From positions 19,175-62,966 of the forward strand of contig CAZSDV010000003.1 in NCBI GenBank assembly GCA_964605715.1: DNA of 43,792 nt, in the 5' to 3' direction. The notes beneath the pieces are model-generated. The model worked only from the letters and a program-made list of their open reading frames with translations, did not search any database and was not told the DNA's origin. Numbering within the stretch: position 1 is the stretch's first letter; each line of letters opens with the position of its first letter. The translations under genes and the position numbers were made by a program. Below are positions 29,005 to 42,577 of this stretch, piece by piece. Source of the stretch: an uncultured Acidobacteriota bacterium (GTDB lineage Bacteria; Acidobacteriota; Terriglobia; UBA7540; JAPUME01).

Positions 29005-29287
29005 TCGGACTCTTAGAGTTAGATTTTAATAAGTGGATTGCTGAGATGTGCCTATAAGGAGGAGGGTGTCAGCGATGAACTTAAATAGGCGGATTAGCCA
29101 ACCATGTCATAAAAGAGGGTCCGCTCTATATCTAATGGGCTTCGTCGCGGAGCTGACTCCCGATTAGGGAGCAGGGTCCACCTCTACTTTAAGGGACTAT
29201 CTTTTTTGCGAGGAAGAATACAGGAGGATGAGAGTACTTGACCGCGGAAGTCAAGTTCCAATTAGGATGTCATTCTCCCCAAGCAGT

Positions 29288-29617
29288 TTATTTTTTCAGA
29301 GTACGTATGTGACCAACAATGGCCTTGAGTTCCTCATCGCTGATCTTAGTTGCAGGAAATGCGGGCATTGGGGGTTTGCCTGCCCGGGTGAATTCCGAAA
29401 TGTGTTTGTCGGAGTGGCTTTCCTGCCATTTAGCGTCACTCATATCCGGAGTCTTCATTGCTGCAAAACCCTTACCGTCAATTCCGTGACACATGGAGCA
29501 GTTTCTCTTGAATAAATCTTCGCCGTCGTTCGCTGATGTGGGAGTACTTGCGACGCAAAGGAGGAAAATTCCCAAAAAAATCGTTGCACGTGTAAGTGCA
29601 TTCCAGCTAGTTTCCAT
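29288..29617 (-). CDS. monoheme class I c-type cytochrome, secreted
   Basis: 109 aa with a signal peptide, CSMCHG, and a distal PMPAF (Met ligand region). Confidence 0.85.
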   Translation of the reverse strand: METSWNALTRATIFLGIFLLCVASTPTSANDGEDLFKRNCSMCHGIDGKGFAAMKTPDMSDAKWQESHSDKHISEFTRAGKPPMPAFPATKISDEELKAIVGHIRTLKK

Positions 29618-29840
29618 CGATGACTCCTCGGGCTTTTTGTTAATTTGTTGTACAGGAGCTTCACTTGCAATTGCTTTTTAAAATGAATGAATGTTACGCA
29701 GAAACAAACCAGGAACATGTTAGCTGTATGAATCACTAAAATCAACGCCTCCCTAGGTTTTCATTGCAATAAATCGCAACTCTTTTAGGGGGCGGGGTGT
29801 TTGAGCGCTTCGCACAACTAATTTAGAAAAGGAAGGATTT

Positions 29841-30569
29841 ATGGCAACAGAATTGAGAGGTAAAGTTGCAGTTGTTACAGGCGGGTCTCGTGGTATTGGG
29901 TTTGCGGTTGCGGACCGCTTAGCTACGGAAGGAGTAAATGTGGTTGTCTGCGCCCGTAATTCTGAAAGGCTAAATCAGGCTGTTCAGCAGCTCACCCAGC
30001 GACACGCTCATTTGGTTCGCGGTTTGGTAGCTGATGTCCGCCGCTTTGAGGATTGTCGCCGAATAATGGAGCATGCAGCGGAGATATTTGGGGGCATAGA
30101 TATCTTGGTGAATAATGCAGGCATTGGTTTTTTCAAACCTGTGGATCAGATTAACCCTGAAGAGTGGGATGAATTGTTGGCAACCAACCTAAGTGGAGTT
30201 TTTTATTGTGTTCACGAAGTTGTGCCCTGGATGCGCAAACGCGGCGGGGGGTATATTTTCAATATCTCAAGTCTTGCTGGAGTGAATCCTTTCAAAGGGG
30301 GGGCAGCCTACAATGCCTCGAAATTCGGGTTGAACGGTTTCAGCGAAGCTGCGATGCAAGACCTGCGCTATGACGGGATTCGTGTCAGTTATATCATGCC
30401 TGGGAGTGTTGATACGGACTTTACTCACCACCCTTCCTCTAGGCCACGTTCAAATTGGAAGCTTTCGAGTGAAGATATCGCCAAGGCTGTCGTAGACTTA
30501 GCTGCTTATCCTAGCGGCTCTCTCGCAAGCCGTATCGAGCTGCGCCCGTCACAGCCGCCAAAAAAATAG
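29841..30569 (+). CDS. SDR family oxidoreductase (classical short-chain dehydrogenase)
   Basis: TGGSRGIG, NNAG, and S...YNASK catalytic motifs. 242 aa. Confidence 0.9.
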   Translation: MATELRGKVAVVTGGSRGIGFAVADRLATEGVNVVVCARNSERLNQAVQQLTQRHAHLVRGLVADVRRFEDCRRIMEHAAEIFGGIDILVNNAGIGFFKPVDQINPEEWDELLATNLSGVFYCVHEVVPWMRKRGGGYIFNISSLAGVNPFKGGAAYNASKFGLNGFSEAAMQDLRYDGIRVSYIMPGSVDTDFTHHPSSRPRSNWKLSSEDIAKAVVDLAAYPSGSLASRIELRPSQPPKK

Positions 30570-30780
30570 AGAGGAAAAAGATTGATGACTCATTGAAATT
30601 TCTGATAACTAATCTACTTCAGGTTTCCTGTCCGCCAGAAATGAAAAATGTTGATTTAAAACGACTGTATACAGGGGCTGCAACCTGGGGTATGTTGGCT
30701 CGTCAATTCTTCACATCTAGTCAGGTGGTATCGAAGCCCGACTTAACGTTTTAGGATCTGCGGCCTGATCTGAGTATAAA

Positions 30781-31380
30781 ATGATTACCGGTAAGATTGG
30801 GGAGGCTGGCCAGTTTATGCACACCTGGGTTGTGCGAGGGTTGGTGTCGACACGCTTAAGCCCAAATGTTTTTACCTTCCTTGGATTTTGTATCAATGTT
30901 TATGCTGCCTTCTTGTTTGCTGATGGGTATTTTTTCCGCGGTGCTCTGATTGTGATTTTGGCAGGTGTGTTTGACCTGTGTGACGGACCTGTGGCTCGTG
31001 CCACAAACCAAGTTACTGCTTTCGGAGCGTTCTTTGATTCAGTGATAGATCGTTATTCTGACATGGCACTTTATATTGGGATTCTTGTTTATTACGTACG
31101 TGCTGGCTCAATGCTTTATGTTGGCCTTACGGCCTTAGTGGTGGCTGGCTCGTTGATGACTAGCTATACCAGGGCGAAGTCAGAATCTATAATTCCTTCT
31201 TGCAAGGTGGGATTTCTCGAGCGCGCCGAACGTATTGTTTTAATCATCATTGGCGGTCTATTTAATCATATGGGTCCCGTGCTTTGGGTAATTGCCATTT
31301 TTTCGAATCTTGCAGTTATTCACCGCTGCCTTTATACCTGGCAGCAGCTCCGTGGGCTCAACTCTAAAATGTCCAGATAG
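30781..31380 (+). CDS. CDP-alcohol phosphatidyltransferase family protein
   Basis: DLCDGPVARATNQVTAFGAFFDSVIDRYSD matches D-x2-DG-x2-AR-x8-G-x3-D-x3-D. Multi-TM, 199 aa. Confidence 0.88.
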   Translation: MITGKIGEAGQFMHTWVVRGLVSTRLSPNVFTFLGFCINVYAAFLFADGYFFRGALIVILAGVFDLCDGPVARATNQVTAFGAFFDSVIDRYSDMALYIGILVYYVRAGSMLYVGLTALVVAGSLMTSYTRAKSESIIPSCKVGFLERAERIVLIIIGGLFNHMGPVLWVIAIFSNLAVIHRCLYTWQQLRGLNSKMSR

Positions 31381-31409
31381 CCGTTTTTGTTAATCAACTG
31401 TTTGAATGG

Positions 31410-32372
31410 TTAATGATTTAGCAGCCTGCTTGCTTGAGGGACTATTACGGAAAGCCGCTGAGGAAATAGGGTAATCTCCAGTGGAAGCATGCCCAGTGGT
31501 TCACCATCAACTTCTATCCTGGTAGGTTCATTAGCCTCTGCCGCAATTTTGCTTCCTTGAAGGTGATGAACTTTCGGGTGGCGGTACACATTGTCGGAGT
31601 AGAGGATTGAATGGTCCCGGACTAAATTGTAGAAGTTCAGGAAATCGATGACCGTGACTTCTAACACACCATCGTTCAGGAGTGCTGTTGGGCATGGTTG
31701 CATTCCTCCTCCATGGAACCTTCCGTTGCCAACTGCAACATTGGAAACAAAGAATGGTAGGGGTTCGGAGGAGCCGTTTAATCGTAGGCGTACAGAGCGC
31801 CCTCGATAGCCGAGGAAAACGCGAAGTGTTGCCCATTTGAAGGCGAGGGCACCACTGAAGCGAGAGAGGAAATTCTTTGAAGCTTCAGCGACTGCTCCTC
31901 CCATGCCGAAGCTCACAAGATTGATGAAAATACGACTCTGATGCTTCCTCTGATGGTCAGTGTAAACTATTTTTCCAAGATCAATCGGAAGCGGAGTGCC
32001 AGTTTTTAGGACTTCGATCATTTCTTCGATGTTTGAGGATATCCCCAGCGTTCTTCTGAAATCACCGCCCGTTCCTAAATTTAGCAATCCTAGGCAAGCG
32101 CTGGGTCGCACAGGCTTATCAGCGGTGAAGAAACCGTTAGCAATTTCATTAATGGTGCCGTCGCCTCCAGCAGCGATTATGCGCTCAAATCCTTTTTCGA
32201 GTAACTCCCGAGCTAGCACGATGCCATGTCCTGGACACTTGGTGAATTGTGTAACGAACGGGCCCAGGTGATATTTCAGTGTCTGTTGAATATGCGACCA
32301 ATTGCGGGCTGCCTTCCCACCTCCTGAGCAGGGATTTACAATAACTGCTGTTTTTTTTGTTTCGTTAGTCAC
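31410..32372 (-). CDS. diacylglycerol-kinase-like lipid kinase (YegS/BmrU/LCB5 family)
   Basis: GTG start. AVIVNPCSGGGKA and IIAAGGDGTINEIANG are hallmarks of the DAGK catalytic domain. 320 aa. Confidence 0.88.
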   Translation of the reverse strand: MTNETKKTAVIVNPCSGGGKAARNWSHIQQTLKYHLGPFVTQFTKCPGHGIVLARELLEKGFERIIAAGGDGTINEIANGFFTADKPVRPSACLGLLNLGTGGDFRRTLGISSNIEEMIEVLKTGTPLPIDLGKIVYTDHQRKHQSRIFINLVSFGMGGAVAEASKNFLSRFSGALAFKWATLRVFLGYRGRSVRLRLNGSSEPLPFFVSNVAVGNGRFHGGGMQPCPTALLNDGVLEVTVIDFLNFYNLVRDHSILYSDNVYRHPKVHHLQGSKIAAEANEPTRIEVDGEPLGMLPLEITLFPQRLSVIVPQASRLLNH

Positions 32373-32388
32373 AAGATTAGGAAACTTA

Positions 32389-33381
32389 TCAGTTTTTTCC
32401 GAGCCGTTCTTGAAGATCCACTACCGTATCCCTCAGTGTTTCCATGGGGTGGCGGCTTTTAAAACCTAGTTCAGTTTGTGCCTTTTGAGAGTTGCAATAC
32501 CAGAATAGCGCTGACATCCTGATGGACTCCTCGTCCAGCTCAAAAGACTTCCCAATCAGAGGGTATAATCGTCGCAACCATCGTGCGGTTACAAGGGAGA
32601 AGCCCAATGAAGGTTGCAGTTTCGGTGCCCTGAGGCCGGAGATTTCTGAAACTGCCCTGATTAATTTTTGGAAAGTCCAGTTTGGCCCCGCAAGAATGTA
32701 GCGTTCACCACAGCTTCCAGACTGCATGGCGGTGATCAATCCACCAGCGACATCACGGACGTCAACGAAGTTCAATCCCCCACGTGGGATGGCAAGAATT
32801 TGCCCTTTCAAGAATAGCGCTACGTCCCGGGTTGAGGAGTTTCGATCATCACCAGGTCCAAGCAAGAGGCTGGGATTCACAAGCACAACCGGTATTTGGA
32901 AGCGCTTCCAGTAGCTGAGGGTTAGTTTTTCAGCAAAGATCTTGCTCAGATAGTAAGGCCATTTTCCTACAACCTCGTGCTTGTAGCCAGAAGTCTCATT
33001 GTGGAGGACAGGGTTTGGGCTGACGGCCACCGTTCCCGATGAGGAGACGACAACCATTTTTTTAATATTGTGTTTTCGGGCTGCTTCGCACACATTCCGG
33101 GTGCCTTCGATATGGGTTTTGTAAAGGATTCCGTTGTCCTTGGGTTTACGCAAAACCATTCCGGCTAGGTGATATATTTCTTGTACGCCCTCAGCGGCCC
33201 GAAGTACATCTGGAAGCGATGTAATATTGGCACGAACCACTTCGATTTCAGAATTATTGTTCCAGTGCGACAGTCCTCGACAGAATATCCGCAGGCGAGC
33301 AAGCTTATCTTTCTCCTTCAGTTGTTCCACCAGATGTTTTCCCAGGAAGCCTGTGGCTCCAGTTATAAGTATGGTCTTCAT
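32389..33381 (-). CDS. NAD-dependent epimerase/dehydratase (extended SDR, HpnA / 3-beta-HSD-like)
   Basis: ILITGATGFLGKHLV Rossmann motif and YYLSK (YxxxK). 330 aa. Confidence 0.88.
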   Translation of the reverse strand: MKTILITGATGFLGKHLVEQLKEKDKLARLRIFCRGLSHWNNNSEIEVVRANITSLPDVLRAAEGVQEIYHLAGMVLRKPKDNGILYKTHIEGTRNVCEAARKHNIKKMVVVSSSGTVAVSPNPVLHNETSGYKHEVVGKWPYYLSKIFAEKLTLSYWKRFQIPVVLVNPSLLLGPGDDRNSSTRDVALFLKGQILAIPRGGLNFVDVRDVAGGLITAMQSGSCGERYILAGPNWTFQKLIRAVSEISGLRAPKLQPSLGFSLVTARWLRRLYPLIGKSFELDEESIRMSALFWYCNSQKAQTELGFKSRHPMETLRDTVVDLQERLGKN

Positions 33382-33387
33382 GAGAAC

Positions 33388-35079
33388 TCAGTTGTCCTCC
33401 GGGGAAGGAAGGACATCGGCCATGCCGATTGGTGGGATGTGCATAAGCGTGATACTCGGTTTTCTTCTTAAAAAAGATTGGGCCATCCCTAGAGCCTCTT
33501 CCATATTTCGGGCACAGTCCCATCCTAAGGTCCTTGCAACGCTAGAATCTTCTGCTCCAACGACGATAACTTTTCCTACATGTGCACGGCCATTTTCTCC
33601 CCAATACCACATGTAAAAAGGGTGCACACCATGGTAGGCGTTGCCGGTGCGGTACATGCGGATGTAATCGGGGTTATGTGCAAATTCCTCTTCGTAGTTC
33701 CTCTGTAGTTCAAAGGAGTCACGCGTCTCAGGCAGGATACGGTGAAAAAACTCAATATAAGAGGGGTGATGCTGTGGATCGAACTCATCATACAGTGGAT
33801 GGGTAAGAATCATCACGCCATTCTTTTTCACCACTGGCATATTTCTGTACATGTTGTGGAAGTACCCCAGTGCCAATACTTGCACGAGCACTGGATTCAA
33901 GATTGAGTTGACGTTGTACGGTGAAATAAATGGGATGCCATATACGACCACATCAGATTGCCCTTCTACGGGCACGCAGTACTGCGCGTAGCAATAGGCT
34001 AGAGTTTTTTGGTGTGTCTGATTTGTTGCTCCGGCATGGATAGCGATTGGCTCATAGGCAGCAGGAAAACTAAAGAGCAGTTTTCTTTTAGCGGAGCGTG
34101 AGAGCTTTTTTAGTATCCATTGCGTTGTCTTAAAGGATGCGCGATCGAAGGCTGAATAATCGTCCTCATTTTTTGCAAAAAATGACATTTTCGGGTGGAA
34201 CATTGCATTGTTGAGAGCCGTTTCGATGTGAAATACCTTCAGGTGTTGATTGATGACTTCCTGGATACGGTCGCAGGATGCAGTAAGCGCAGATTGGGAA
34301 GGGTCAAAATAGGAATTACACTTTAGGATGGTGCCCGGGGTATGGTGCGCCTGTAGAGTGGGGTAATCGCACAGCCCTACGCTAACGGATTTACTTCCAC
34401 CATCCATGGAAACTAGGTTTATGTTGACATAAATCAATAGATCAGATTCGGCTGCACGCCGATTGATGCGTACTCGCTCGCCGTTTTCAGTAGTGCCGAG
34501 CTCAACCATGCCGTTAGGTGCCTCACCGTCATGGTTGTAGAGACGATTCGGATAGAATTCCCGGAATATTTTTCTTCCCACCGCATGTTGGATTTCAAAT
34601 GGTGCCATCTTCCGGTGAAATGAAGTGGCGATAATAATGTGAATATCTTCGATATTTTTTTCGGTCAATAACCTCAGCAGGATGTTTAGGATTGTTTCAC
34701 GCACGTCAGGTTGTGGCATCTTTGGAAGAGGAAGGGAAATGTCGTCGATAGCGATTGTTACCTTCATGCCTGGTGTGAGCGAAGCTGCCAGCGGGTCCAT
34801 TTCTTCCGGATGGTCAATGGCATATTCGACAGCGGAGTCACGATTTAGAAGTCCTGGAATTGTGGGCTTAGGATAGACTACGCGCGTTCCGGCAGGCATT
34901 TTCACGTCGGTAAGATCCTCGCCGTTCCACAAAAGACGCGATGAGGAATTGCGGGTTAGGTGTTCTACGCAACCACTATCTGATACTAGTGCGTTTCGCC
35001 CCACTGCGTTAGGCGTCGGATCAAGAGATTCCAATATTTCAGTTCCCGCGGGAAAAATCACATTACTGGTTGCTGGCAT
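33388..35079 (-). CDS. LarA-like (lactate racemase N-terminal domain / DUF2088) protein, divergent, 563 aa
   Basis: VTIAIDDISLPLP, IIIATSFHRKM and ESDLLIYVN...GGSKSVSVGLCDYPTLQAHH are collinear with the LarA segments ISSDHTRPVP, VATGFHRPS and GGRKS...(16)...H as I recall them. ATG 35079 follows GGAAGGGGAG. Confidence 0.75.
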   Translation of the reverse strand: MPATSNVIFPAGTEILESLDPTPNAVGRNALVSDSGCVEHLTRNSSSRLLWNGEDLTDVKMPAGTRVVYPKPTIPGLLNRDSAVEYAIDHPEEMDPLAASLTPGMKVTIAIDDISLPLPKMPQPDVRETILNILLRLLTEKNIEDIHIIIATSFHRKMAPFEIQHAVGRKIFREFYPNRLYNHDGEAPNGMVELGTTENGERVRINRRAAESDLLIYVNINLVSMDGGSKSVSVGLCDYPTLQAHHTPGTILKCNSYFDPSQSALTASCDRIQEVINQHLKVFHIETALNNAMFHPKMSFFAKNEDDYSAFDRASFKTTQWILKKLSRSAKRKLLFSFPAAYEPIAIHAGATNQTHQKTLAYCYAQYCVPVEGQSDVVVYGIPFISPYNVNSILNPVLVQVLALGYFHNMYRNMPVVKKNGVMILTHPLYDEFDPQHHPSYIEFFHRILPETRDSFELQRNYEEEFAHNPDYIRMYRTGNAYHGVHPFYMWYWGENGRAHVGKVIVVGAEDSSVARTLGWDCARNMEEALGMAQSFLRRKPSITLMHIPPIGMADVLPSPEDN

Positions 35080-35770
35080 AGCTCCCCTTCCTTAGATCCA
35101 GGATTGCCCAGCCACGCTTGATGGCGACCTTTTTTAATCGGCAATCAGGATTAACAGCTATAGGTTCGCCTACGGCTTCAAGCATTGGTAAATCGGAAGA
35201 ACTGTCAGAGTATGCTTTTGATTTTCTCATCTCGGCAGATGAAGCTTGGCAGGACTTTTGCATTGCCGTCACTTTTTCATTTTCCGCAATGAGTGGAGGT
35301 GCGATCTCACCTGTTGCAATACCGTCTTGATAAATCAGCTGGTTGCATATTACCTCATCAAAACCGAAGTATCGCACCACGGGTTCTAATGCGAAGTCGA
35401 GGGCTCCGCTGATGAGGACCGGGCGAAATCCATTTTTTCGGTCTGCATCAATTAAAGGTTTTGCTCCCAAATAAATTGTCGGGAGGATAACGTTTTCAAA
35501 AAGTGGCTCAGCTAGCTGTTGAAGGCAATCTTTTTCCATTCCTTGGTATTCACGGTAAAAAACCTTATTGAATAAACGTCGCGAATAAAGGTTCAGGCCT
35601 ATCCACAAGGGGATTTCCAAGACAAGCTTCGTGTACTTTAGGATTGCTCGGATCTTTGCAGGTTGATTTCTTACGAGATAGGCGCATCTTGTTACTACAT
35701 TTGAGGAGGCTAAAGTTCCATCAAAGTCGTAAAATGCTACCCGGTTGCGTTCGCTCATAATATGTTTCAT
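35063..35770 (-). CDS. HAD-IB family hydrolase (phosphoserine-phosphatase-like)
   Basis: ATG 35770 (MKHIMSERNRVAFYDFDGTL). Contains DxDGT motif I, ISGA, and a distal SDSSSDLPML. Its 3' end overlaps the next gene's start by 17 nt. Confidence 0.85.
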   Translation of the reverse strand: MKHIMSERNRVAFYDFDGTLASSNVVTRCAYLVRNQPAKIRAILKYTKLVLEIPLWIGLNLYSRRLFNKVFYREYQGMEKDCLQQLAEPLFENVILPTIYLGAKPLIDADRKNGFRPVLISGALDFALEPVVRYFGFDEVICNQLIYQDGIATGEIAPPLIAENEKVTAMQKSCQASSAEMRKSKAYSDSSSDLPMLEAVGEPIAVNPDCRLKKVAIKRGWAILDLRKGSYASNQ

Positions 35771-35786
35771 CTCGGTAAGATCGTTG

Positions 35787-36389
35787 CTAAGTTGGTTTAA
35801 GTAAATTGCGAAAGTTCTGCCGGTGCTGCCACGCAAGCAGCAAGATCATCAGGACAGCATTGGCGGCATGCTGTAAACCTGAAAGCCATAGTAGCAGCAC
35901 AGCGAAAGTAATCCAGGCGAAAAGTGAGCTAATCGCCCCGGCCTCTTTCCACCTCAGTTTGCTTCCTGCGATGCGTATTATGGCGAAAGCAGTCAAGGCA
36001 ATTCCAGCCAAACCTGGATAGAGAACCAGCATCACTCCACCCGAAGTTGCTACGCCCTTTCCTCCGTTAAATTTTAAGAAAGGGGAATAGCAATGCCCGA
36101 TTACTGCTGCAAACCCGTATAGCCATCCATAGTGAATGCTGTCACCAGGTTGGAGAAAACGCCAGAAGAACCATGAAGCCAAGAAGCCTTTTCCCATGTC
36201 TCCAATAAGCACGATGATTGCACGAGGCTTATTGACTCGCAGTACGTTATTAAATCCAGGATTTCCAGAGCCAACCTTACGAATGTCAATCCCTGAGGAT
36301 GCCATGGCGATTACTGCGAAAGGAATTGACCCGACAAAGAAACAGATTAGCAATTTAGGAACAATAGGTATTAAGGTTTCAAGCATCAT
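35787..36389 (-). CDS. plsY: glycerol-3-phosphate acyltransferase PlsY (acyl-phosphate dependent)
   Basis: 200 aa, multi-TM. GSGNPGFNNVLR and FKGGKGVATSGG are PlsY signatures. Confidence 0.9.
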   Translation of the reverse strand: MMLETLIPIVPKLLICFFVGSIPFAVIAMASSGIDIRKVGSGNPGFNNVLRVNKPRAIIVLIGDMGKGFLASWFFWRFLQPGDSIHYGWLYGFAAVIGHCYSPFLKFNGGKGVATSGGVMLVLYPGLAGIALTAFAIIRIAGSKLRWKEAGAISSLFAWITFAVLLLWLSGLQHAANAVLMILLLAWQHRQNFRNLLKPT

Positions 36390-36435
36390 TAATCTCCAGC
36401 AGGTTTGGCCTCAAATTTTAGAAATTTAAATTTTC

Positions 36436-39195
36436 TTAGTCATAAAGCTTGTAGATGGCTAATCGAATACGGTCCCGCAGAGGTGCTATTTCATTCGCTC
36501 TTCCATGGATCCTGGTTCCAAGGGTAATTCTGGTTTGCTGCTGGTTTGAGTGGCCAGATATGCATTTGATTGCGGCAGGTATCAAAGCATTTCCTGTCCC
36601 TACGGCAGCCTGGACGCTTTCCAGACGGAAGCGGCTTGCGAGTGGTGGAGTTCCTGTACGTCCATCAGCAAGAGCTAAAACAGAAATTTTCTCATAAAGA
36701 GCTCCTTGAATTCGCTGCCTAAGCATTCCACCCGGAGGTGTGTACACGTCTTTCAATGGTGCAATAATGAGTGGTTTCAGCAAAAAGGTGGCTGGCCACC
36801 GCAAGGACGTGAGCGCCGTTGCGTCCACAAGTTGAACGGGGGCTGGCAAGGAGGCAACCAAGGCGAGCGGGTCTAATTTGTCATCCCGGTTTACCATGAT
36901 GACAGCGGTTTTATGTGGAGCCATCGCACTTTTACATTCGAATTCGATTTTCCTTCCTAATACGCGTAAAAATACTTGTGCTGACCAACGGCCCATATAG
37001 GCTGCCTGACGACAAGGCAGCAAACGGATCAATATCCCACATAGCAGCGAAACCGTAAGAATTGTTACAGATCTGAAACCTGCAGCTATATTTTGGGTAG
37101 CTTTTTTTAGAAAACGACCAATCATGACATCAAAATTTTTTAGCCAGAGACGGATGATCTGCACCCAAGGAGCCCGCTTATTAATTTTGAGTTTTCCAGA
37201 TTCGTAGAGTGAACAGGTTTCGTTGCGGCGAATTTTTCCGCTTGAAGTCTTGGGGATACTCTGAGGTGCCACCAGAACCACTTTATCGGGAGGGATGCCT
37301 AGAATGCCATCAACCTGTTTTATGATTTCGCTCTCGATTCGTCGCAGCTCATCGGGAATATTGGAGCGGGTTTCTGCTGCGATGACCAGCTGCTCTGTTC
37401 CTGTGAAGGTGTCCATGGTGCCAAAGGCTGCTGTGCACCCCCGACGTACACCTGTAACTTCAGCTGCAGCCTCTTCCACATCCTGCGGGTTAATATTTCG
37501 ACCGGACTTGATGATGCAATCTTTGAGGCGCCCCGTGATATAAAGTTCCCCATCTGCTTGGTAAGCCAAATCGCCTGAATCCATCCATCCATCTTCAGTG
37601 AGGACACGTGCAGTTGCTTCCGGATTCCGGTAGTATCCTGAGGTTTTTGATGGACCACGGAATAGAAGTCGTCCCTGGATTCGTTCTGCCAACTCCTGCC
37701 CTTTCTCGTCCACGATTTTAACCTCATGATTGGGCATTGGTTTACCATTTGCAACGAAATGCATTCGGTTTGTATCTGCAGCTTTTACTTTTTCAGCACG
37801 ACCGTTTTTCTCAAAAATATCCCGGCGAATAGTGTCGATGACAGGGCGACGGTTAATAGGTGGAAAAGCTAGGGCAACGCTTGATTCTGCTAAACCGTAA
37901 CAAGGTACATAGCTCTCTGCGCGGAAACCAAATGCTTTGAAGCGCCTTTCAAATCTTGCAAGAGTACTTGGAAGTACGGTTTCTCCTGCATTGATCGCAA
38001 TGCGCCAAGAACTCAAGTCGAGTCCCTCAAGGGCAGAGTCAGGAATTTTCCGTGCACAAAGTTCGAACGAAAAATTGGGAGCTGGGCAGAGAGTTCCTTT
38101 TGAATCACTGAGAGCGTGAAGCCAGCGCTCGGGTCGACTAAGGAAAGCCAAAGGTGAAAGAACTGTAATTGGAAGGCCATAGTAAAGGCTAAAGAGCCAT
38201 GAGCCGATCAATCCCATGTCGTGGTAGAGAGGGAGCCATGTGACGACAATATCAGTTGGCCGAACCTGCACTGACCAGCCAATTCCACGCACGTTGGCGA
38301 GAATGTTTGAGTGAGTTAAAATAACCCCCTTTGGATCACCCGTGCTTCCAGAGGTGTATTGGATGAAGGCGGTTTCGGACGGATTAACCACGGGCGTCGG
38401 CAGTCCGGCGCCAGATTTAATCATGGCACTGACCGTAGTCACGTTAGCAAGACTTGGAATGCCAAGATTCATGATCTTTGAGACGGCCCGGGCCTGCTCA
38501 AAGCTAATGAGGAATCGTACCCTTGCATTGCGCAGTATAGCGACCTGCCGAGTGACATACTCTTCGATTTTGTCCGGACGAGCAGGGGGATAAATGGGTA
38601 CCGCGATACCACCAGCAAGCATTACACCGAAGAAAGCGTAGAAGAAATCAGAACAAGTGGGCAGCATGATTGCCACTGTTTCGTCTCTCTTGAGCCCTGC
38701 ATTGGTTAATCCTGCTGCGACCTGTGAAGCTGTGCTGAGTAGTTGGCCGTAAGAAATATCCTGACCGCCATGATCTTCAAGTAGATGAACATGTACCCGC
38801 TCTGGTTCGAGTTCAGCATATCGGTGGAGCACATCAATCATTGAGCAGGCGGAAGTAGGCTCCGGAGGAGCTGGGCGTAAGGGCTGGACGATGTGGTAGC
38901 AGGATTCGACGGGAGACTTTTTTTTAGGTTTGAGTAGTGCCTGTACCCATTCAGAAGGAGTCTCCGATTCCTGAGCAATGTGGTCTGGTAGGCGGATCTG
39001 GAAATGCGCTTCTATACGAACTAGCAGTTCCACGCGTTCAAGGCTCCCAAGGCTCAATTCTCGCTCAAGTGATGAATTGAGAGATAGTGATTCTACTGCC
39101 TGATGAGAACCTAATTCTTGCAGGAGCTCGCGGATGATTTCAAGTACTTGCTTTTCGACCGATACTATTTGAGATGGTGTTTTGAGTGTTAACAT
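36436..39195 (-). CDS. fusion protein: N-terminal carrier (PP-binding) domain, fatty acyl-AMP ligase / acyl-ACP synthetase domain, TM segment, and a lysophospholipid-acyltransferase-like domain
   Basis: 919 aa. The carrier domain has LSLGSLERVELL. The adenylation core has YTSGSTGDPKGV, YGLAES, SGDLAY and PKTSSGKIRR. After the TM helix (ILTVSLLCGILIRLL) the C terminus shows MVNRDDKLD (an NHxxxxD motif with R in place of H), LADGRTG (FPEGTR-like) and LIPAAI. Confidence 0.88.
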   Translation of the reverse strand: MLTLKTPSQIVSVEKQVLEIIRELLQELGSHQAVESLSLNSSLERELSLGSLERVELLVRIEAHFQIRLPDHIAQESETPSEWVQALLKPKKKSPVESCYHIVQPLRPAPPEPTSACSMIDVLHRYAELEPERVHVHLLEDHGGQDISYGQLLSTASQVAAGLTNAGLKRDETVAIMLPTCSDFFYAFFGVMLAGGIAVPIYPPARPDKIEEYVTRQVAILRNARVRFLISFEQARAVSKIMNLGIPSLANVTTVSAMIKSGAGLPTPVVNPSETAFIQYTSGSTGDPKGVILTHSNILANVRGIGWSVQVRPTDIVVTWLPLYHDMGLIGSWLFSLYYGLPITVLSPLAFLSRPERWLHALSDSKGTLCPAPNFSFELCARKIPDSALEGLDLSSWRIAINAGETVLPSTLARFERRFKAFGFRAESYVPCYGLAESSVALAFPPINRRPVIDTIRRDIFEKNGRAEKVKAADTNRMHFVANGKPMPNHEVKIVDEKGQELAERIQGRLLFRGPSKTSGYYRNPEATARVLTEDGWMDSGDLAYQADGELYITGRLKDCIIKSGRNINPQDVEEAAAEVTGVRRGCTAAFGTMDTFTGTEQLVIAAETRSNIPDELRRIESEIIKQVDGILGIPPDKVVLVAPQSIPKTSSGKIRRNETCSLYESGKLKINKRAPWVQIIRLWLKNFDVMIGRFLKKATQNIAAGFRSVTILTVSLLCGILIRLLPCRQAAYMGRWSAQVFLRVLGRKIEFECKSAMAPHKTAVIMVNRDDKLDPLALVASLPAPVQLVDATALTSLRWPATFLLKPLIIAPLKDVYTPPGGMLRQRIQGALYEKISVLALADGRTGTPPLASRFRLESVQAAVGTGNALIPAAIKCISGHSNQQQTRITLGTRIHGRANEIAPLRDRIRLAIYKLYD

Positions 39196-39261
39196 GGAAA
39201 TGTTTCGTCGGCCTCGTTTTATATTGAGTCACTCGCCAGCGGCCATTTCTACGAAACTAGT

Positions 39262-40860
39262 TTATATCTTAAATGACCAACCTTTAACTACTTCCGGTTG
39301 AACCCATTTTTCGATGCCTTGGATTTGATTATGAGTCCAATATTCAGCCCAATCGATTTGTTCCGGTTCCCAGGGAATCAGAACCTTGTCTTCGACGGAG
39401 ATCATTGAGTAGGCTGCCCGAATGTTTTCCGATTCGAAAACGTAGCGATTATGCAGGATAAAAGGAAGATATTGATCTAGAGTTTGCTCCCGAAACGCCG
39501 CCTGCAGTTCTTGGATTCTCAAGCTCGCTGACCAGCGAGAAAATATCTTTTCCCGGTCTACTCCGAAAGATTTGAGAGCTTCCTTTAGCCGGGCAATTAG
39601 TGTGCGGGTACACCGGATCCTGTTCTGAAGGCGCACGCGTGTGGAACGAGCTTGATCAGGGGTGATGAAACGAATCCTGCCTCTCGATTTAGCCGTAGCC
39701 GGTCCTAATTTTCTCTCCCAGTGATTTAATTTTTTATTTTGTGCTTCTCTATCCAATAGCTTTATTAATGGTTTGATCCAGAGAGGATTGACGTCAGCCG
39801 TACCGAGCTGGTAAACCGACTGGTGTTTTCCCTCCAGGAGCAAGGCTCCAGCTGCGAGAATTGCTGAAGCCACTAGGTCTACCGGTACAACCTCAAGTGG
39901 TGCATCTTCATTTACCGGCCAGTTTTTGAGTCCCCCTAAGGCCATTAGAACCAGAGGAGCTGAGGTACGCCCTCCTTCGATCCATCCAGGGAAGGGAAAT
40001 TGCAGGGCGCTCTCGATGATAGCAGGGCGGACGATAGCCCAATCTAGATTCTCTTGGGCCGCGAGTACCTGCTCTCCAAGACTTTTCGTATAGGTGTAGG
40101 TGTTTACCCATCCCCAGCGCTCTGCCCGTTTTCGGCCCAAATCGGAAAGCCTTTGGGTAATTTTTCTGGGACGGGCCTCGCCACTAGTAGTGCTGCTCAA
40201 TCCAGCGGACTCGTAAATTTGCTGAACTAAATTGCGACAAACTTCAATTTCTGAGGTATGCGAGAAGGTTTTTTCTTTTGGATCTATGCGACGAGGATAG
40301 AAGCCTAAAATTGGGTCGGTTTCTTCAATTAAACCGTCACTTTCTCCGCAGACATAACAGGTTGACACATGGAGGAGCTTAGCGCCAATTTGCTTTGCAA
40401 TTTCTGCCACATGATCGATCCCGTACACGTTTGAGTTAAGGGATTCGTCAATTGGAGGGAAAAAGTCCACTTTTCCGGCGCAGTTCACAATGAGACCTAC
40501 GCGACCGACTAGCTGTTCCAGAGATTTTGGCCCTAAATTGCACTGTGGTTTGCTGATATCGCCAGGCCAGACTGTGATTTTCTTTTGAATGCAATCCTTG
40601 CCATGTTTTTCAATGACGGGAGCCAGGGCAGGGGAGTTAAGAATTTCTCTCGTGAACCGTCCCTGAGGTGAAAGGCTGTGTTGCGGACGAAGTAGGATAT
40701 GAAGATGCTTTATTTCAGGGAAGCGGTCCAGCAAAAGTCCCAGTACTACCTTGCCGAGGAACCCATTTCCACCAGTCAGAAGAATTTCATGTTCCTTGAA
40801 AATCTTACAAATCTTTATCACGAATAAACCTCTTGGCCGTTCTGGAGAGTTTGGTTGCAC
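39262..40860 (-). CDS. fatty acyl-CoA/ACP reductase (NAD_binding_4, 'male sterility' type)
   Basis: 532 aa with a GTG start. LLTGGNGFLGKVVL, NTYTYTKSLGE (YxxxK), and a long C-terminal FAR-type domain. Confidence 0.88.
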   Translation of the reverse strand: MQPNSPERPRGLFVIKICKIFKEHEILLTGGNGFLGKVVLGLLLDRFPEIKHLHILLRPQHSLSPQGRFTREILNSPALAPVIEKHGKDCIQKKITVWPGDISKPQCNLGPKSLEQLVGRVGLIVNCAGKVDFFPPIDESLNSNVYGIDHVAEIAKQIGAKLLHVSTCYVCGESDGLIEETDPILGFYPRRIDPKEKTFSHTSEIEVCRNLVQQIYESAGLSSTTSGEARPRKITQRLSDLGRKRAERWGWVNTYTYTKSLGEQVLAAQENLDWAIVRPAIIESALQFPFPGWIEGGRTSAPLVLMALGGLKNWPVNEDAPLEVVPVDLVASAILAAGALLLEGKHQSVYQLGTADVNPLWIKPLIKLLDREAQNKKLNHWERKLGPATAKSRGRIRFITPDQARSTRVRLQNRIRCTRTLIARLKEALKSFGVDREKIFSRWSASLRIQELQAAFREQTLDQYLPFILHNRYVFESENIRAAYSMISVEDKVLIPWEPEQIDWAEYWTHNQIQGIEKWVQPEVVKGWSFKI

Positions 40861-41067
40861 AAGGCACTACTTACAGATTTTAAGTACCAAACTAGATAAG
40901 TGCCGTGCTGATTCTCCTGATACTACAATCGTATTTAGGACACGTTAGCGGGCGAAGGAACCCAATGTCAAGGTTGGGGCTTCTAAGCCTTTTACCTGGT
41001 GGGGTTGGACGTACAGAGTCACCAGTGGTAAAAATAAGGGGGAAAAATTTCAACAAGGAATTTAGCA

Positions 41068-41850
41068 TTGAAACCCATTGCACTTACTGTTGCCGGTTCG
41101 GATCCGTCGGGCGGGGCTGGCATTCAGGCGGATCTTAAAACTTTCCACCAGGTTAGCGTTTACGGGATGAGCGTCATAACCCTGGTTACTGTCCAGAATA
41201 CTCAGTGTGTAAGTGTAGTAGAGCCCCTTCCCGCTGAATTGGTAGGCAAGCAACTTGATGCTCTAATTGAGGATATTCCACCCCATGCAGCTAAGACGGG
41301 TGCCCTGGGAACAGCAGAAATCATTGAAGAGATCGCGGAACATGCGCAGAAATTTTCCTTCCCTTTAGTCGTGGATCCGGTGATGCTTAGCAAGGATGAG
41401 ACTGAATTAATGGTTCCTTCAGCCAGGAAGATTTTCATCAAACGGCTTTTGCCGCAGGCATTTCTCATAACACCGAACTTGGACGAAGCAGCAATCTTAG
41501 CTGGAATAGCGGTTAACGATGAACTGTCAATGCAGGAATCAGCTCGAAGGATTGCGGATTTGGGTCCCAGAGCTGTGCTGGTTAAGGGAGGGCATTTGGA
41601 GGGAAAAGCCCTAGATCTACTTTTCCATCAGGGCAAGTTTCAGAGATTTATAGCACATCGAGAAACTACGGCCCATATGCACGGAACTGGATGTACCCAT
41701 TCAGCTGCCATTACAGCGGGATTAGCTCATGGCAAGAACCTAGAAGCCGCTGTGCGCTCGGCAAAACAGTTTATCTCTCGGGCAATTATTGAAAACCCAG
41801 GTCTCGGTCACGGAATAGGGCCGGTAAATCACCACGCAAAAATCAAATGA
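41068..41850 (+). CDS. thiD: hydroxymethylpyrimidine/phosphomethylpyrimidine kinase
   Basis: TTG start follows AAGGAA. Contains LTVAGSDPSGGAGIQADLKTF, VVDPVM, LITPNLDEA, VKGGH and GTGCTHSAAITAGLA. Confidence 0.92.
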   Translation: MKPIALTVAGSDPSGGAGIQADLKTFHQVSVYGMSVITLVTVQNTQCVSVVEPLPAELVGKQLDALIEDIPPHAAKTGALGTAEIIEEIAEHAQKFSFPLVVDPVMLSKDETELMVPSARKIFIKRLLPQAFLITPNLDEAAILAGIAVNDELSMQESARRIADLGPRAVLVKGGHLEGKALDLLFHQGKFQRFIAHRETTAHMHGTGCTHSAAITAGLAHGKNLEAAVRSAKQFISRAIIENPGLGHGIGPVNHHAKIK

Positions 41851-42118
41851 GGTCCATTCTCAGAATTAAAGGTTTGTAGTTTATTAGACTCATTGATGCC
41901 AGCTGTTTCAGTCCAACAAGCTTCTATTGGGAATTATATTTTTTCCAAAATCTCCCTTTGGGCATATTTAAAAAAGGGTTTTTGGAGGAAGGATTTTTCT
42001 ATTCCTTTTTAGCACCGTTACCCAGAGAACAATTTTGTGTATCCAAAAAAAGAAGACCTTTCATTTTCGGATACCCTCCTGAAGCGATTGTCTCTTTCTC
42101 AGGAGAAGAAAGTTTTTC

Positions 42119-42139
42119 AAGCCGAGGGCGGCTTATTTT
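42119..42139 (+). terminator. orphan intrinsic-terminator-like hairpin in the thiD-tRNA spacer
   Basis: AAGCCG(42119-42124)-AGGG-CGGCTT(42129-42134) followed by ATTTT(C), about 270 nt after the thiD stop and about 115 nt before the tRNA. Confidence 0.4.
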
Positions 42140-42252
42140 CAGTGTGAAAAAAGGAGGGTGTCTGGCCATGATTATTTTTTCCATATTTTTCGGTAAGAAG
42201 AATGGGTCTAGGTGGTGAAAGAATGTTTGTTGTATGCTGAAGGAGTCTTTCC

Positions 42253-42328
<76 letters not shown>

Positions 42329-42577
42329 AATATCTTTTGTGACTCGCATGAGATCTTCCTCTTTACTGACTTCCCTTCGCTGGCTCTCTCTATTTTCACT
42401 GGTTTTAAACCTTACCTTAATCGGTCACCTGTAGATCATTAAATTTAAAAATACCTTCCATTTAGCTTTTCCTCCCCTACCGAAATCAAGTTTCCCATTG
42501 GGACCTGAAATCACGGTGACCTGCTCTGACATTGTCCATTTTGAGATATTAATAATTGATTGTAAAAAATTAAATAT

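What the first reader, a model, noticed from the sequence alone, without database searches (positions are those of the whole stretch)
30781..40860. Compact operon resembling a dedicated ether or other unusual glycerolipid assembly line
Seen in the sequence: seven co-directional minus-strand genes have gaps of 66, 46, 16, -17 (overlap), 6 and 16 nt. In order they encode a fatty acyl reductase (39262..40860), a carrier-FAAL-acyltransferase-like fusion (36436..39195), PlsY (35787..36389), a HAD-IB hydrolase (35063..35770), a LarA-like protein (33388..35079), an extended-SDR epimerase/dehydratase (32389..33381) and a DAG-kinase-like lipid kinase (31410..32372). They converge, 29 nt apart, on a CDP-alcohol phosphatidyltransferase (30781..31380), which is preceded by an SDR (29841..30569). 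Established knowledge: in eukaryotes and myxobacteria, acyl activation plus reduction to a fatty alcohol or aldehyde feeds alkyl-glycerol ether lipid synthesis. The Myxococcus ElbD protein was reported to combine ligase, carrier, reductase and AGPAT-type domains, which is the same inventory that is spread over two genes here. PlsY, lipid kinase and CDP-alcohol transferases act on the glycerol-phosphate backbone and the head group. Inference: the locus encodes a self-contained pathway from free fatty acid to a specialised (alkyl-ether or otherwise modified) phospholipid. No FAD-dependent alkyl-DHAP synthase is present, so ether-bond formation, if it occurs, would need a non-canonical enzyme. 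The LarA-like protein and the epimerase are the unexplained candidates.
Basis: partly seen in the sequence, partly recalled or inferred. Interest (0 to 1): 0.75.

Follow-up and report, generated by a model that had tools for sequence, protein, structure and literature searches.

The report
Acidobacterial elb-type ether-lipid gene cluster
This is an acidobacterial version of the myxobacterial "elb" ether-lipid gene cluster, so the kind is known, but it shows that the cluster's best conserved and never explained gene (ElbC) encodes a lactate-racemase-like nickel-cofactor enzyme that may make the ether bond.

Summary
Seven co-directional minus-strand genes lie at the stated coordinates with the stated gaps, and they converge on a CDP-alcohol transferase. 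It is an elb-type (ether lipid biosynthesis) cluster from a marine Terriglobia/Bryobacterales-like acidobacterium.

- HAD = ElbB.
- LarA-like = ElbC, 53% identical to M. xanthus MXAN_1529.
- Extended SDR = ElbE.
- FAR plus ACP-FAAL-acyltransferase = a split, re-ordered ElbD.

The pairing of the LarA-like gene with the HAD gene holds in 71 of 80 related loci from several phyla. PlsY, a YegS-type lipid kinase and the CDP-alcohol transferase are acidobacterial additions. Elb-like clusters with similar accessory genes, and split elbD, are already published, so the kind is known.

New details found here:
- The acyltransferase domain has lost its catalytic His (NRx4D instead of NHx4D). This happens only in the lineage that recruited PlsY.
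- ElbC, called "unknown function" in ether-lipid papers, is LarA-homolog group 15. It keeps the nickel-pincer tether Lys, the Ni-ligand His and one catalytic His, but lacks the second His.

No lipid product was shown. Any role of ElbC in forming the ether bond is inference.

The parts
39262..40860 (-). Fatty acyl reductase (FAR). It corresponds to the N-terminal reductase part of ElbD. The Rossmann motif TGGNGFLGK and a YxxxK motif are present.
   Evidence: NAD_binding_4 1.4e-49 plus a weak Sterile domain. It is 27-36% identical to the N-terminus of fused ElbD in Myxococcota loci and 52-72% identical in acidobacterial loci. Motifs were read from the translation.
36436..39195 (-). ACP, FAAL-like adenylation domain, a hydrophobic segment, then a degenerate acyltransferase domain (AT*). 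It corresponds to the C-terminal two thirds of ElbD, but with the carrier domain moved to the N-terminus.
   Evidence: PP-binding at residues 16-87 and AMP-binding at 125-522. FAAL models are the best NCBIfam hits. The L007 homologue carries PF01553 Acyltransferase at 33 bits.
36439..37179 (-). AT* domain (residues 673-919 of the fusion). It has an acyltransferase fold, with motif I as NRDDKLD (His replaced by Arg, R770) and motif III (FPEGTR) degenerate.
   Evidence: No Pfam hit at E<=1. hhalign against the ElbD acyltransferase domain gives probability 96.9%, E 1.3e-10, with NR..D aligned over NH..D. His is missing in 12 of 13 Bryobacterales-type homologues, whereas 31 fused ElbD proteins have NHx4D and 30 have FPEGTR. 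It is the least conserved part of the protein: 30-35% identity against 53-60% for the whole protein.
35787..36389 (-). PlsY-type glycerol-3-phosphate acyltransferase, which uses acyl-phosphate. The GSGNPG and HxxSPF...GGKGVAT motifs are intact.
   Evidence: PF02660 2.6e-39. TIGR00023 scores 129.5, just under its 137.2 cutoff. It lies within 10 kb of the LarA-like gene in 16 of 23 acidobacterial loci and 0 of 57 others.
35063..35770 (-). HAD-IB phosphatase, the ElbB orthologue. The DxDGT nucleophile motif is present.
   Evidence: TIGR01490 114 bits, above its 98.3 cutoff. It is next to the LarA-like gene in 71 of 80 loci, on the same strand in 70. It sits in the elbB position in L055.
33388..35079 (-). 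ElbC orthologue, a LarA (lactate racemase) superfamily protein of group 14/15/16. H155 corresponds to catalytic His108 of LarA, K230 to the nickel-pincer tether Lys184, and H246 to the Ni-ligand His200. The loop that carries the second catalytic His174 is absent.
   Evidence: NF052592 783 bits, above its 740 cutoff. PDB 9q2u at E 4e-32 over both domains, with the residue mapping. K230 and H246 are conserved in 81 of 81 sequences and H155 in 80 of 81. It is 53% identical to MXAN_1529.
32389..33381 (-). Extended SDR (HpnA/3-beta-HSD-like), the ElbE orthologue. GATGFLG and YxxxK motifs are present.
   Evidence: Epimerase 8.7e-33. It is 36-42% identical to the SDR downstream of ElbD in Myxococcota loci. 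It sits in the elbE position in L055.
31410..32372 (-). YegS/BmrU/Rv2252-type lipid (diacylglycerol-like) kinase. This is an acidobacterial accessory gene.
   Evidence: DAGK_cat plus YegS_C, and TIGR00147 above cutoff. Present in 17 of 23 acidobacterial loci and 1 other, always co-directional.
30781..31380 (+). CDP-alcohol phosphatidyltransferase with an intact DGx2ARx8Gx3Dx3D motif. It is nearest to the inositol-phosphate-transferring clade and is the probable head-group step.
   Evidence: PF01066 2e-18. Archaetidylinositol-phosphate synthase 144.9 bits and PIP synthase 121 bits are both below cutoff, against 36 bits for PgsA. Its homologue lies directly upstream of FAR, co-directional, in L007, L010 and L014.
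29841..30569 (+). Classical SDR. Membership of the cluster is doubtful.
   Evidence: adh_short 2.3e-61. It is conserved next to the cluster only in the closest relative, L003.

Best explanation
The locus is the acidobacterial (Bryobacterales-type) form of the elb ether-lipid biosynthesis cluster.

Shown by orthology:
- HAD = ElbB, LarA-like = ElbC, extended SDR = ElbE.
- FAR plus ACP-FAAL-AT* together carry the ElbD domain set.

Inferred pathway:
1. The FAAL-like domain adenylates a free fatty acid and loads it on its own N-terminal carrier domain.
2. FAR reduces the carrier-bound acyl group to a fatty aldehyde or alcohol.
3. PlsY supplies 1-acyl-glycerol-3-phosphate. It takes over the backbone acylation that the intact acyltransferase domain performs in fused ElbD, because here that domain has lost its catalytic His and probably acts only as a membrane anchor or scaffold.
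4. ElbC is a nickel-pincer enzyme with a single catalytic His. Together with the NAD(P)-dependent ElbE it converts the acyl or hemiacetal intermediate into 1-O-alkyl-glycerol-3-phosphate, through a transient keto (DHAP-like) state at glycerol C2.
5. The HAD phosphatase and the YegS-type kinase interconvert the phosphorylated and free alkyl(acyl)glycerol.
6. After CDP activation by housekeeping enzymes, the CDP-alcohol transferase adds a polyol-phosphate head group, probably inositol-phosphate-like.

The expected product is a 1-O-alkyl (monoether) glycerophospholipid.
For: Orthology and synteny:
- L055 reproduces elbABCDE with the LarA-like gene in the elbC position (operon description in PMC9131029).
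- MXAN_1529 is listed as LarAH group 15, and the locus tags elbA=MXAN_1531 to elbE=MXAN_1527 make it elbC.
- The window protein is 53% identical to MXAN_1529 over 377 ungapped residues, E 7e-150.
- Across 80 loci from Acidobacteriota, Myxococcota, Binatia, Planctomycetota, Gemmatimonadales and Leptonemataceae, the counts are HAD 71, FAR 49, AMP-binding 47 and ElbE-like SDR 45.
- The same seven-gene order occurs in L003 and in L083-L086.

Genetics in M. xanthus tie elbD, and probably elbE, to alkyl and vinyl ether lipids independently of AGPS (PMC9131029).

Catalytic motifs are intact in every enzyme except AT* (translations).

PlsY co-occurs with the His-less AT* architecture in 13 of 13 loci and is absent from the 57 non-acidobacterial loci, which hold the canonical ElbD genes.

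The nickel-pincer-binding residues of ElbC are invariant.

Published elb-like clusters have neighbouring G3P acyltransferase, DAG kinase and CDP-alcohol transferase genes (bioRxiv 10.64898/2026.06.23.733905).
Against: - There are no lipid data for this organism or for any carrier of this exact architecture.
- The individual steps of the Elb pathway are biochemically unknown. Isolated ElbD showed no acyltransferase activity, and an aldehyde but no fatty alcohol was detected.
- elbC itself has never been mutated on its own.
- Pontiella carries ElbD homologues but no ether lipids were detected in it (PMC11868695).
- Solibacter usitatus (Bryobacterales) makes ether lipids while reported to lack ElbD (PMC10087280).
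- Frankia LarAH14 showed no activity on the hydroxyacids tested, so even the cofactor-dependent chemistry of this group is unproven.
- No larB/larC/larE genes for nickel-pincer synthesis were found in the window, in 10 kb of contig beyond it, or as conserved neighbours.
- The adenylation domain is only 23-29% identical to that of ElbD.
- A phosphatase and a kinase in one operon have no clear joint logic.
Confidence: 0.75

Rival explanations
1. Ordinary or housekeeping phospholipid synthesis. On this reading PlsY, the lipid kinase and the CDP-alcohol transferase are the cell's normal glycerolipid enzymes, and the FAR/FAAL/LarA-like genes merely sit beside them.
For: PlsY has intact motifs and scores close to the equivalog cutoff (129.5 against 137.2). 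The rest of the window is housekeeping, including rimP-nusA-infB-rbfA-truB. G+C content is uniform, so there is no sign of an island.
Against: PlsY, the kinase and the transferase are embedded co-directionally, with 6-66 nt gaps, among elb orthologues. That order is kept in relatives whose LarA-like protein is 72-86% identical. PlsY appears only where the ElbD acyltransferase has lost its His. No plsX, plsC or cdsA is present.
Confidence: 0.07
2. A fatty alcohol, fatty aldehyde, wax-ester or other non-ether lipid pathway. FAR and FAAL would make fatty alcohols that are esterified or phosphorylated, not ether-linked.
For: The FAR has the two-domain alcohol-forming architecture. No ether-forming enzyme of a proven type (AGPS, PlsA/Ger) is present. 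Some ElbD-homologue carriers show no ether lipids.
Against: M. xanthus elbD mutants lose alkyl and vinyl ether lipids. No wax synthase/DGAT is present in the cluster. The invariant partners are glycerol-phosphate-related (HAD-IB, an AGPAT-type domain or PlsY) rather than wax-related.
Confidence: 0.08
3. ElbC changes the stereochemistry of the backbone or of a hydroxy-acid rather than making the ether. It would epimerise C2 of a glycerol-phosphate lipid, or racemise a 2-hydroxy fatty acid or glycerate. The ether bond would be made by ElbD/FAR plus ElbE alone.
For: Every characterised LarA-family enzyme is a C2 racemase or epimerase (PMC7583248, PMC11770544). The TG-1 ether lipid of M. xanthus is described only as 'rac'.
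Against: The second catalytic His, needed for two-base racemisation, is absent in the whole family. The signature positions listed for groups 14/15 in Desguin's dataset differ from LarA's at most positions other than the cofactor-binding Asp, Lys and His. Assigning some of those positions to carboxylate binding rests on my own knowledge of LarA. LarAH14 was inactive on all 2-hydroxyacids tested.
Confidence: 0.1

Closest known systems
Myxococcus xanthus elbABCDE ether-lipid operon (MXAN_1531-1527; MIBiG BGC0000871)
   Same: It has orthologues of ElbB (HAD-IB), ElbC (LarA-like, 53% identical) and ElbE (extended SDR). All four ElbD domain types are present: reductase, adenylation, carrier and acyltransferase fold. 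The genes are co-directional and tightly packed.
   Different: - ElbD is split into FAR and ACP-FAAL-AT*.
- The carrier domain precedes the adenylation domain instead of following it.
- The adenylation domain is FAAL-like and only 23-29% identical to that of ElbD.
- The acyltransferase motif I His is replaced by Arg.
- There is no ElbA.
- PlsY, a YegS-type kinase and a CDP-alcohol transferase have been added.
elb-like gene cluster families of sponge symbionts (Poribacteria, Acidobacteriota; Loureiro et al. 2022 mSystems and 2026 bioRxiv) and the split-elbD variant reported for soil Acidobacteria
   Same: Marine origin and an acidobacterial host. The published clusters have neighbouring G3P acyltransferase, DAG kinase and CDP-alcohol transferase genes (clades 1-2), and a split between the reductase and adenylation domains is on record.
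   Different: I could not compare sequences with those families. Those papers do not mention a LarA-like or ElbC gene, the His-to-Arg change, or the N-terminal carrier order. The nearest genomes to the window are Terriglobia/Bryobacterales MAGs, whereas the sponge acidobacterial MAGs are subdivision 6.
LarA (lactate racemase) superfamily, groups 14/15/16, and the single-histidine LarA homologues LarA_Sp / LarA_Bw (PDB 9q2u, 9q3j)
   Same: It has the two-domain LarA fold by sequence (E 4e-32). The nickel-pincer tether Lys, the Ni-ligand His and the first catalytic His are conserved. The second catalytic His is missing. It also shares the C-terminal YxRxYR...H..H motif with the structurally solved single-His enzymes.
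   Different: The His174 loop is deleted rather than replaced by Asn. His306 of LarA_Sp is Pro here. The genomic context is glycerolipid genes rather than glycolysis or carbohydrate genes. No substrate is known.
Eukaryotic and myxobacterial AGPS route (GNPAT, FAR1, FAD-dependent alkyl-DHAP synthase, acyl/alkyl-DHAP reductase)
   Same: It has the same logical parts list: fatty acid activation, FAR, backbone acyltransferase and an SDR-type reductase. A route through a C2-keto intermediate is plausible.
   Different: No FAD-dependent AGPS is present in the window. If the ether-forming catalyst is encoded here, it would be the nickel-pincer LarA-like protein. PlsY acylates G3P rather than DHAP.
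PlsA/PlsR and Ger (anaerobic ester-to-ether reductases)
   Same: The proposed end product is the same: 1-O-alkyl or alkenyl glycerolipids in bacteria.
   Different: The proteins are unrelated. No PlsA/Ger-like protein was seen in the window. Published work says those enzymes work only anaerobically, while this window also encodes cytochrome c and PQQ-dehydrogenase proteins.

Membership tests
elb ether-lipid cluster | ElbC orthologue next to an ElbB (HAD-IB) orthologue | tested here: met
   53% identity to MXAN_1529. The HAD gene overlaps it by 17 nt. The pair is conserved in 71 of 80 loci.
elb ether-lipid cluster | A single multidomain ElbD in the order reductase, adenylation, carrier, acyltransferase | tested here: not met
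   The domains lie on two genes, with the order FAR | ACP-FAAL-AT*. Fused ElbD in L055 has the canonical order.
elb ether-lipid cluster | Catalytically competent AGPAT-type domain (NHx4D, FPEGTR) | tested here: not met
   The window has NRDDKLD and a degenerate motif III. By contrast, 31 fused ElbD proteins have NHx4D and 30 have FPEGTR.
elb ether-lipid cluster | ElbE-type extended SDR in the operon | tested here: met
   Epimerase family 8.7e-33. It is 36-42% identical to the SDR that follows ElbD in Myxococcota.
elb ether-lipid cluster | Required for production of alkyl or vinyl ether glycerolipids | not testable with these tools
   This needs lipidomics of a mutant or an expression host. The only genetic evidence is from M. 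xanthus elbD and elbE.
LarA / nickel-pincer-dependent superfamily | Lys that tethers the cofactor (LarA K184) and His that ligates Ni (H200) | tested here: met
   K230 and H246 align to K195 and H211 of the holo structure 9q2u. Both are 81 of 81 conserved.
LarA / nickel-pincer-dependent superfamily | Two catalytic histidines (H108 and H174) for racemisation | tested here: not met
   H155 (=H108) is present in 80 of 81 sequences. The H174 loop is a 4-residue gap. Groups 14/15 are reported to lack it.
LarA / nickel-pincer-dependent superfamily | larB, larC and larE maturation genes in the same genome | not testable with these tools
   None were found in the window, in 10 kb upstream of it, or among conserved neighbours. 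Whole genomes could not be read.
LarA / nickel-pincer-dependent superfamily | Membership by curated sequence model | tested here: met
   NF052592 (LarAH14/15/16) 783.4 bits against a cutoff of 740. Lar_N 1.4e-34.
PlsY acyl-phosphate:G3P acyltransferase | Curated equivalog score and conserved motifs | tested here: inconclusive
   TIGR00023 scores 129.5, below its 137.2 cutoff, while Pfam PF02660 is far above its cutoff. The motifs GSGNPG and H..SPF..GGKGVAT are present.
AGPS (alkyl-DHAP synthase) route | FAD-dependent alkyl-DHAP synthase gene | tested here: not met
   No FAD_binding_4/AGPS-like protein was found among the 36 window ORFs scanned. The rest of the genome was not seen.
Phosphatidylinositol-phosphate synthase clade of CDP-alcohol transferases | Score above the curated cutoff of the AIPS or PIPS models | tested here: not met
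   144.9 against 180 for AIPS and 121 against 170 for PIPS. These are still far above the PgsA score of 36. The head group is therefore only a guess.

The most novel reading that the evidence does not exclude
ElbC is a nickel-pincer (LarA-type) enzyme and the missing ether-bond-forming catalyst of the AGPS-independent aerobic bacterial pathway. Using its one catalytic His and the cofactor, it would take a hydride from C2 of 1-acyl-G3P (or of a G3P-aldehyde hemiacetal). The resulting DHAP-like keto intermediate would be held while the acyl group is exchanged for a fatty alcohol, or water is lost. The hydride would then be returned, giving 1-O-alkyl-G3P. That would be the first lipid substrate, the first non-isomerase net reaction and the first aerobic membrane-biogenesis role for the LarA family. 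Because ElbC is the best conserved gene of the cluster, it would also be a better marker than ElbD for aerobic bacterial ether-lipid producers, possibly including producers of branched GDGT-type lipids.
Probability: 0.25. Interest if true: 0.85.

Novelty: new variant of a known kind. Interest (0 to 1): 0.5.

Why it matters
How aerobic bacteria make non-isoprenoid ether lipids without AGPS is unresolved. It bears on the origin of branched GDGT palaeoclimate proxies, on sponge-symbiont ether lipids and on the 'lipid divide'. Environmental surveys currently use ElbD as the marker.

This locus adds three points:
- Bryobacterales-type Acidobacteria carry a re-ordered elb cluster. Full-length ElbD searches may under-detect it, because the adenylation part is only about 25% identical.
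- The acyltransferase function appears to have passed to PlsY. That points to an acylated G3P as a pathway intermediate.
- ElbC is more conserved than any other cluster protein: 52-60% identity between phyla, against 23-45% for the others. It is a nickel-pincer-type enzyme.

Two separate literatures list the same M. xanthus gene, MXAN_1529. One calls it 'ElbC, unknown function' and the other 'LarAH group 15, unknown function'. Nothing in the searchable library connects them. Joining them gives a direct experiment: test whether ether-lipid synthesis depends on ElbC and on nickel.

Tried and rejected
- **Pfam scan of the C-terminal 246 aa alone:** no hit at E<=1. The domain was resolved only through the L007 homologue and hhalign.
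- **Search for larB/larC/larE:** the remaining window ORFs were annotated. ORFs from 81 loci were clustered and ten recurrent neighbour families annotated: TetR, GGDEF, a DSP phosphatase, ParA, a radical SAM/TRAM protein, a protein kinase and four with no Pfam match. The contig was extended 10 kb upstream. The look-up from the downstream end found no record. No lar maturation gene was seen. Whole-genome co-occurrence could not be tested.
- **Link to a cultured organism with lipid data:** the most widely seen close homologue (P0061, 64 collection blocks) came only from metagenome contigs. Solibacter usitatus is not among the best 80 genome loci, which agrees with the report that it lacks ElbD, but only the best 80 of 590 or more were kept.
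- **Literature link between ElbC and LarA:** searches for elbC + LarA, lactate racemase + elbD and nickel-pincer + ether lipid found nothing relevant. A search for LarC + LarE + Myxococcus also found nothing.
- **Promoter and terminator scan of 29000-42000:** fewer hits than in shuffled sequence, so uninformative.
- **Rfam scan:** only a tRNA, and no riboswitch upstream of the operon or of thiD.
- **Considered and rejected:** a horizontally acquired island (uniform G+C), and LarAH15 as a gluconate epimerase. The 2024 JBC paper numbers individual proteins, so its 'LarAH15' is a Phytophthora GntE and not Desguin's group 15.
- **Not run:** structure prediction, because the sequence evidence for both folds was already decisive.

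Full report
**Observation.**
- 39262-40860, 36436-39195, 35787-36389, 35063-35770 (ATG; a longer TTG ORF reaches 35836), 33388-35079, 32389-33381 and 31410-32372 all lie on the minus strand.
- The gaps are 66, 46, 16, -17, 6 and 16 nt.
- The operon converges, 29 nt apart, on 30781-31380 (+), which is preceded by 29841-30569 (+).
- Pfam and NCBIfam confirm the family calls: FAR (NAD_binding_4 plus a weak Sterile domain), PP-binding plus a FAAL-like AMP-binding domain, PlsY, HAD-IB, a LarA-like protein that passes the curated LarAH14/15/16 model (783 against 740 bits), an HpnA-like extended SDR, a YegS-type lipid kinase, a CDP-alcohol transferase nearest the inositol-phosphate transferases, and a classical SDR.
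- The rest of the window is ordinary chromosome: rimP-nusA-infB-rbfA-truB, a copper ATPase, a PQQ dehydrogenase, c-type cytochromes and thiD. G+C content is uniform.
- The same DNA occurs on marine metagenome contigs. The nearest genomes are Terriglobia/Bryobacterales MAGs.

**What it is.** I used the LarA-like protein to fetch 80 related genomic loci and mapped all window proteins onto them.
- In Myxococcota the LarA-like gene is preceded by the HAD gene. It is followed by a very long gene that matches both FAR and the adenylation domain, and then by the extended SDR.
- In Corallococcus terminator (L055) the domain scan reads SDR, HAD, LarA-like, a 1541-aa protein with NAD_binding_4, Sterile, AMP-binding, PP-binding and Acyltransferase, then SDR.
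- That is the published elbABCDE operon: elbA and elbE are NAD epimerase-family proteins, elbB is HAD-like, elbC has unknown function, and elbD is the FAR-ACS-ACP-AGPAT protein (PMC9131029).
- The identification can be made exact. The PNAS 2026 paper gives the tags MXAN_1531 (elbA) to MXAN_1527 (elbE), so elbC is MXAN_1529. Desguin et al. 2020 list MXAN_1529 in LarA-homolog group 15, 'unknown function'.
- The window protein is 53% identical to MXAN_1529 over 377 ungapped residues, E 7e-150.

**Synteny statistics**. Among the 80 loci:
- HAD accompanies the LarA-like gene in 71, on the same strand in 70.
- FAR is present in 49, an AMP-binding gene in 47 and the ElbE-like SDR in 45. Many loci are cut short by contig ends.
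- PlsY is present in 16 of 23 acidobacterial loci and in none of the other 57.
- The lipid kinase is present in 17 of 23 acidobacterial loci and in one other.
- The CDP-alcohol transferase is present in four acidobacterial loci. In three of them it lies directly upstream of FAR on the same strand.
- A widespread uncultured relative (74% identical LarA-like protein) has the identical seven-gene order.
- An all-against-all clustering of the ORFs from the 80 loci plus the window region found no further widely conserved partner.
- Desguin's supplementary Table S1 had already recorded that LarAH groups 14-16 sit beside AGPAT, HAD-type phosphatase, thioester reductase, NDP-sugar-epimerase-type and long-chain acyl-CoA synthetase COGs. 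It drew no lipid conclusion.

**How this version differs from ElbD.** The second gene is not a simple fragment of ElbD.
- Its carrier domain is N-terminal, and its adenylation domain is FAAL-like and only 23-29% identical to that of ElbD.
- Its C-terminal 250 residues have no Pfam match. The L007 homologue still scores on PF01553, and a profile-profile comparison with the ElbD acyltransferase domain gives 96.9% probability.
- In that alignment the catalytic NHx4D of ElbD falls on NRx4D. The His is missing in 12 of 13 Bryobacterales-type proteins, and FPEGTR is degenerate. In contrast, 31 fused ElbD proteins keep NHx4D and 30 keep FPEGTR.
- This domain is also the least conserved part of the protein (30-35% identity against 53-60% for the whole protein).
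- All 13 loci with this architecture have PlsY in the cluster, and none of the 57 non-acidobacterial loci, which hold the canonical ElbD genes, has PlsY within 10 kb.
- I infer that PlsY has taken over the backbone acylation. This suggests that the ElbD acyltransferase acts on G3P at sn-1 and that an acyl-G3P is a pathway intermediate.

**ElbC.**
- Its best solved relatives are the single-histidine LarA homologues 9q2u and 9q3j (E 4e-32 and 6e-27, both domains aligned).
- Using the holo structure's residue roles (PMC12611868): H155 aligns with the first catalytic His, K230 with the Lys covalently bound to the nickel-pincer cofactor, and H246 with the Ni-ligand His. The loop carrying the second catalytic residue is a gap.
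- In 81 family members K230 and H246 are invariant, and H155 is present in 80.
- The signature table in Desguin's dataset shows that, apart from the cofactor-binding Asp, Lys and His, groups 14 and 15 differ from LarA at most of the listed active-site positions. Frankia LarAH14 was inactive on every hydroxyacid tested.
- ElbC is thus predicted to bind the cofactor. It is unlikely to be a racemase and unlikely to act on a simple 2-hydroxyacid.
- It is also the most conserved protein of the cluster between phyla (52-60% against 23-45% for the others), although the loci were selected by ElbC similarity.

**Mechanism.** This paragraph is inference.
- Fatty acid is adenylated and loaded on the carrier domain. 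FAR reduces it. An aldehyde was seen in M. xanthus and lost in elbD mutants.
- PlsY makes 1-acyl-G3P.
- ElbC transiently oxidises glycerol C2 by hydride transfer to the cofactor. This creates the DHAP-like ketone that, by my reading of the published AGPS mechanism, the AGPS reaction also depends on. The ketone allows acyl-for-alkyl exchange, or dehydration of a hemiacetal.
- The keto group is then re-reduced, either by the cofactor or by ElbE with NAD(P)H.
- The HAD phosphatase, the kinase and the CDP-alcohol transferase handle phosphate and the head group.
- A recent report that nickel-pincer enzymes can do intermolecular hydride transfer (PMC13524815) shows that the cofactor is not limited to racemisation.
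- None of these steps was tested here.

**Comparison with the literature and novelty.**
- The elb cluster is known in myxobacteria, in subdivision 4 Acidobacteria and in sponge symbionts.
- A split between the reductase and adenylation domains is published, and so are neighbouring G3P acyltransferase, DAG kinase and CDP-alcohol transferase genes.
- The locus is therefore a variant of a known kind.
- I could not find three things in the searchable literature: the N-terminal carrier/FAAL architecture, the His-to-Arg acyltransferase correlated with PlsY recruitment, and any statement that ElbC is a LarA-family nickel-pincer protein. The library is incomplete, and Lorenzen 2014 and Sinninghe Damsté 2018 could not be read.

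**Limits.**
- No lipid phenotype is available.
- No whole genome could be read, so I could not check larBCE or a second plsY.
- ElbD homologues do not always coincide with ether lipids.
- A brGDGT-producing member of the Bryobacterales is reported to lack ElbD.

**Scores.**
- Confidence that this is an elb-type ether-lipid cluster: 0.75.
- Probability that ElbC itself forms or directly enables the ether bond: about 0.25.

Noticed in passing
window 14021-15286 (-): A 421-aa protein whose only Pfam hit is a phospholipid methyltransferase (PEMT) domain at residues 106-177. This is another lipid-modifying candidate, about 15 kb from the cluster.
   Followed up: no
window 1530-2711 (+): The stop-to-stop ORF joins an ABC-transporter ATPase domain to an iron-dependent-repressor C-terminal (metal-binding) domain. 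It lies next to FtsX/MacB-type permease genes. The fusion is unusual, and gene callers also report it (L087, L088).
   Followed up: no
window 42253-42325 (+): A tRNA gene (Rfam, 77.9 bits). The 116-aa ORF at 41999-42349 on the minus strand overlaps it and is probably spurious.
   Followed up: partly
window 21952-23550 (+); L083 1591-3378: A PQQ-dependent dehydrogenase lies about 8 kb from the cluster in the window. A PQQ dehydrogenase with a cytochrome c domain sits directly upstream of FAR in the widespread relative L083-L086. This could be a link to alcohol or aldehyde oxidation, or it could be coincidence.
   Followed up: no
L019, L021, L022 (Sulfopaludibacter-type Acidobacteria): A third cluster layout: HAD, LarA-like, FAR, SDR, kinase, then PlsY on the opposite strand. 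No ACP-FAAL-AT* gene lies within 10 kb.
   Followed up: no
L016, L017, L020, L023 (Bryobacterales MAGs with full 10-kb flanks): Only the HAD and LarA-like genes are linked (plus the SDR in L016 and L017). FAR and the adenylation gene must be elsewhere or absent. The HAD/ElbC pair therefore behaves as the minimal conserved unit.
   Followed up: partly
Desguin 2020 Dataset S1, Frankia group 16 LarA homologs: Group 16 proteins (FRAAL3757, Francci3_2278) have Gly in place of the cofactor-tethering Lys, and one has Asn in place of the first catalytic His. Some lipid-context LarA homologues may therefore have lost cofactor binding.
   Followed up: no
L083-L086 5360-5479: A 39-aa ORF is called between FAR and the ACP-FAAL gene in the relative. 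The window has only a 66-nt gap at that position.
   Followed up: no
L087 1-2034 (contig beyond the window's left end): FGE-sulfatase-type and Methyltransf_33 genes lie side by side, which resembles the EgtB/EgtD ergothioneine pair. They are followed by a TonB-dependent receptor, an aldehyde dehydrogenase (opposite strand), LexA and an FTR1 iron permease.
   Followed up: no
L065 8472-9131 and 10 other loci: A TetR-family regulator lies immediately upstream of the HAD/LarA-like pair in 11 loci, including L065 (labelled 'uncultured delta proteobacterium'). It is a candidate cluster regulator and is absent from the window.
   Followed up: no
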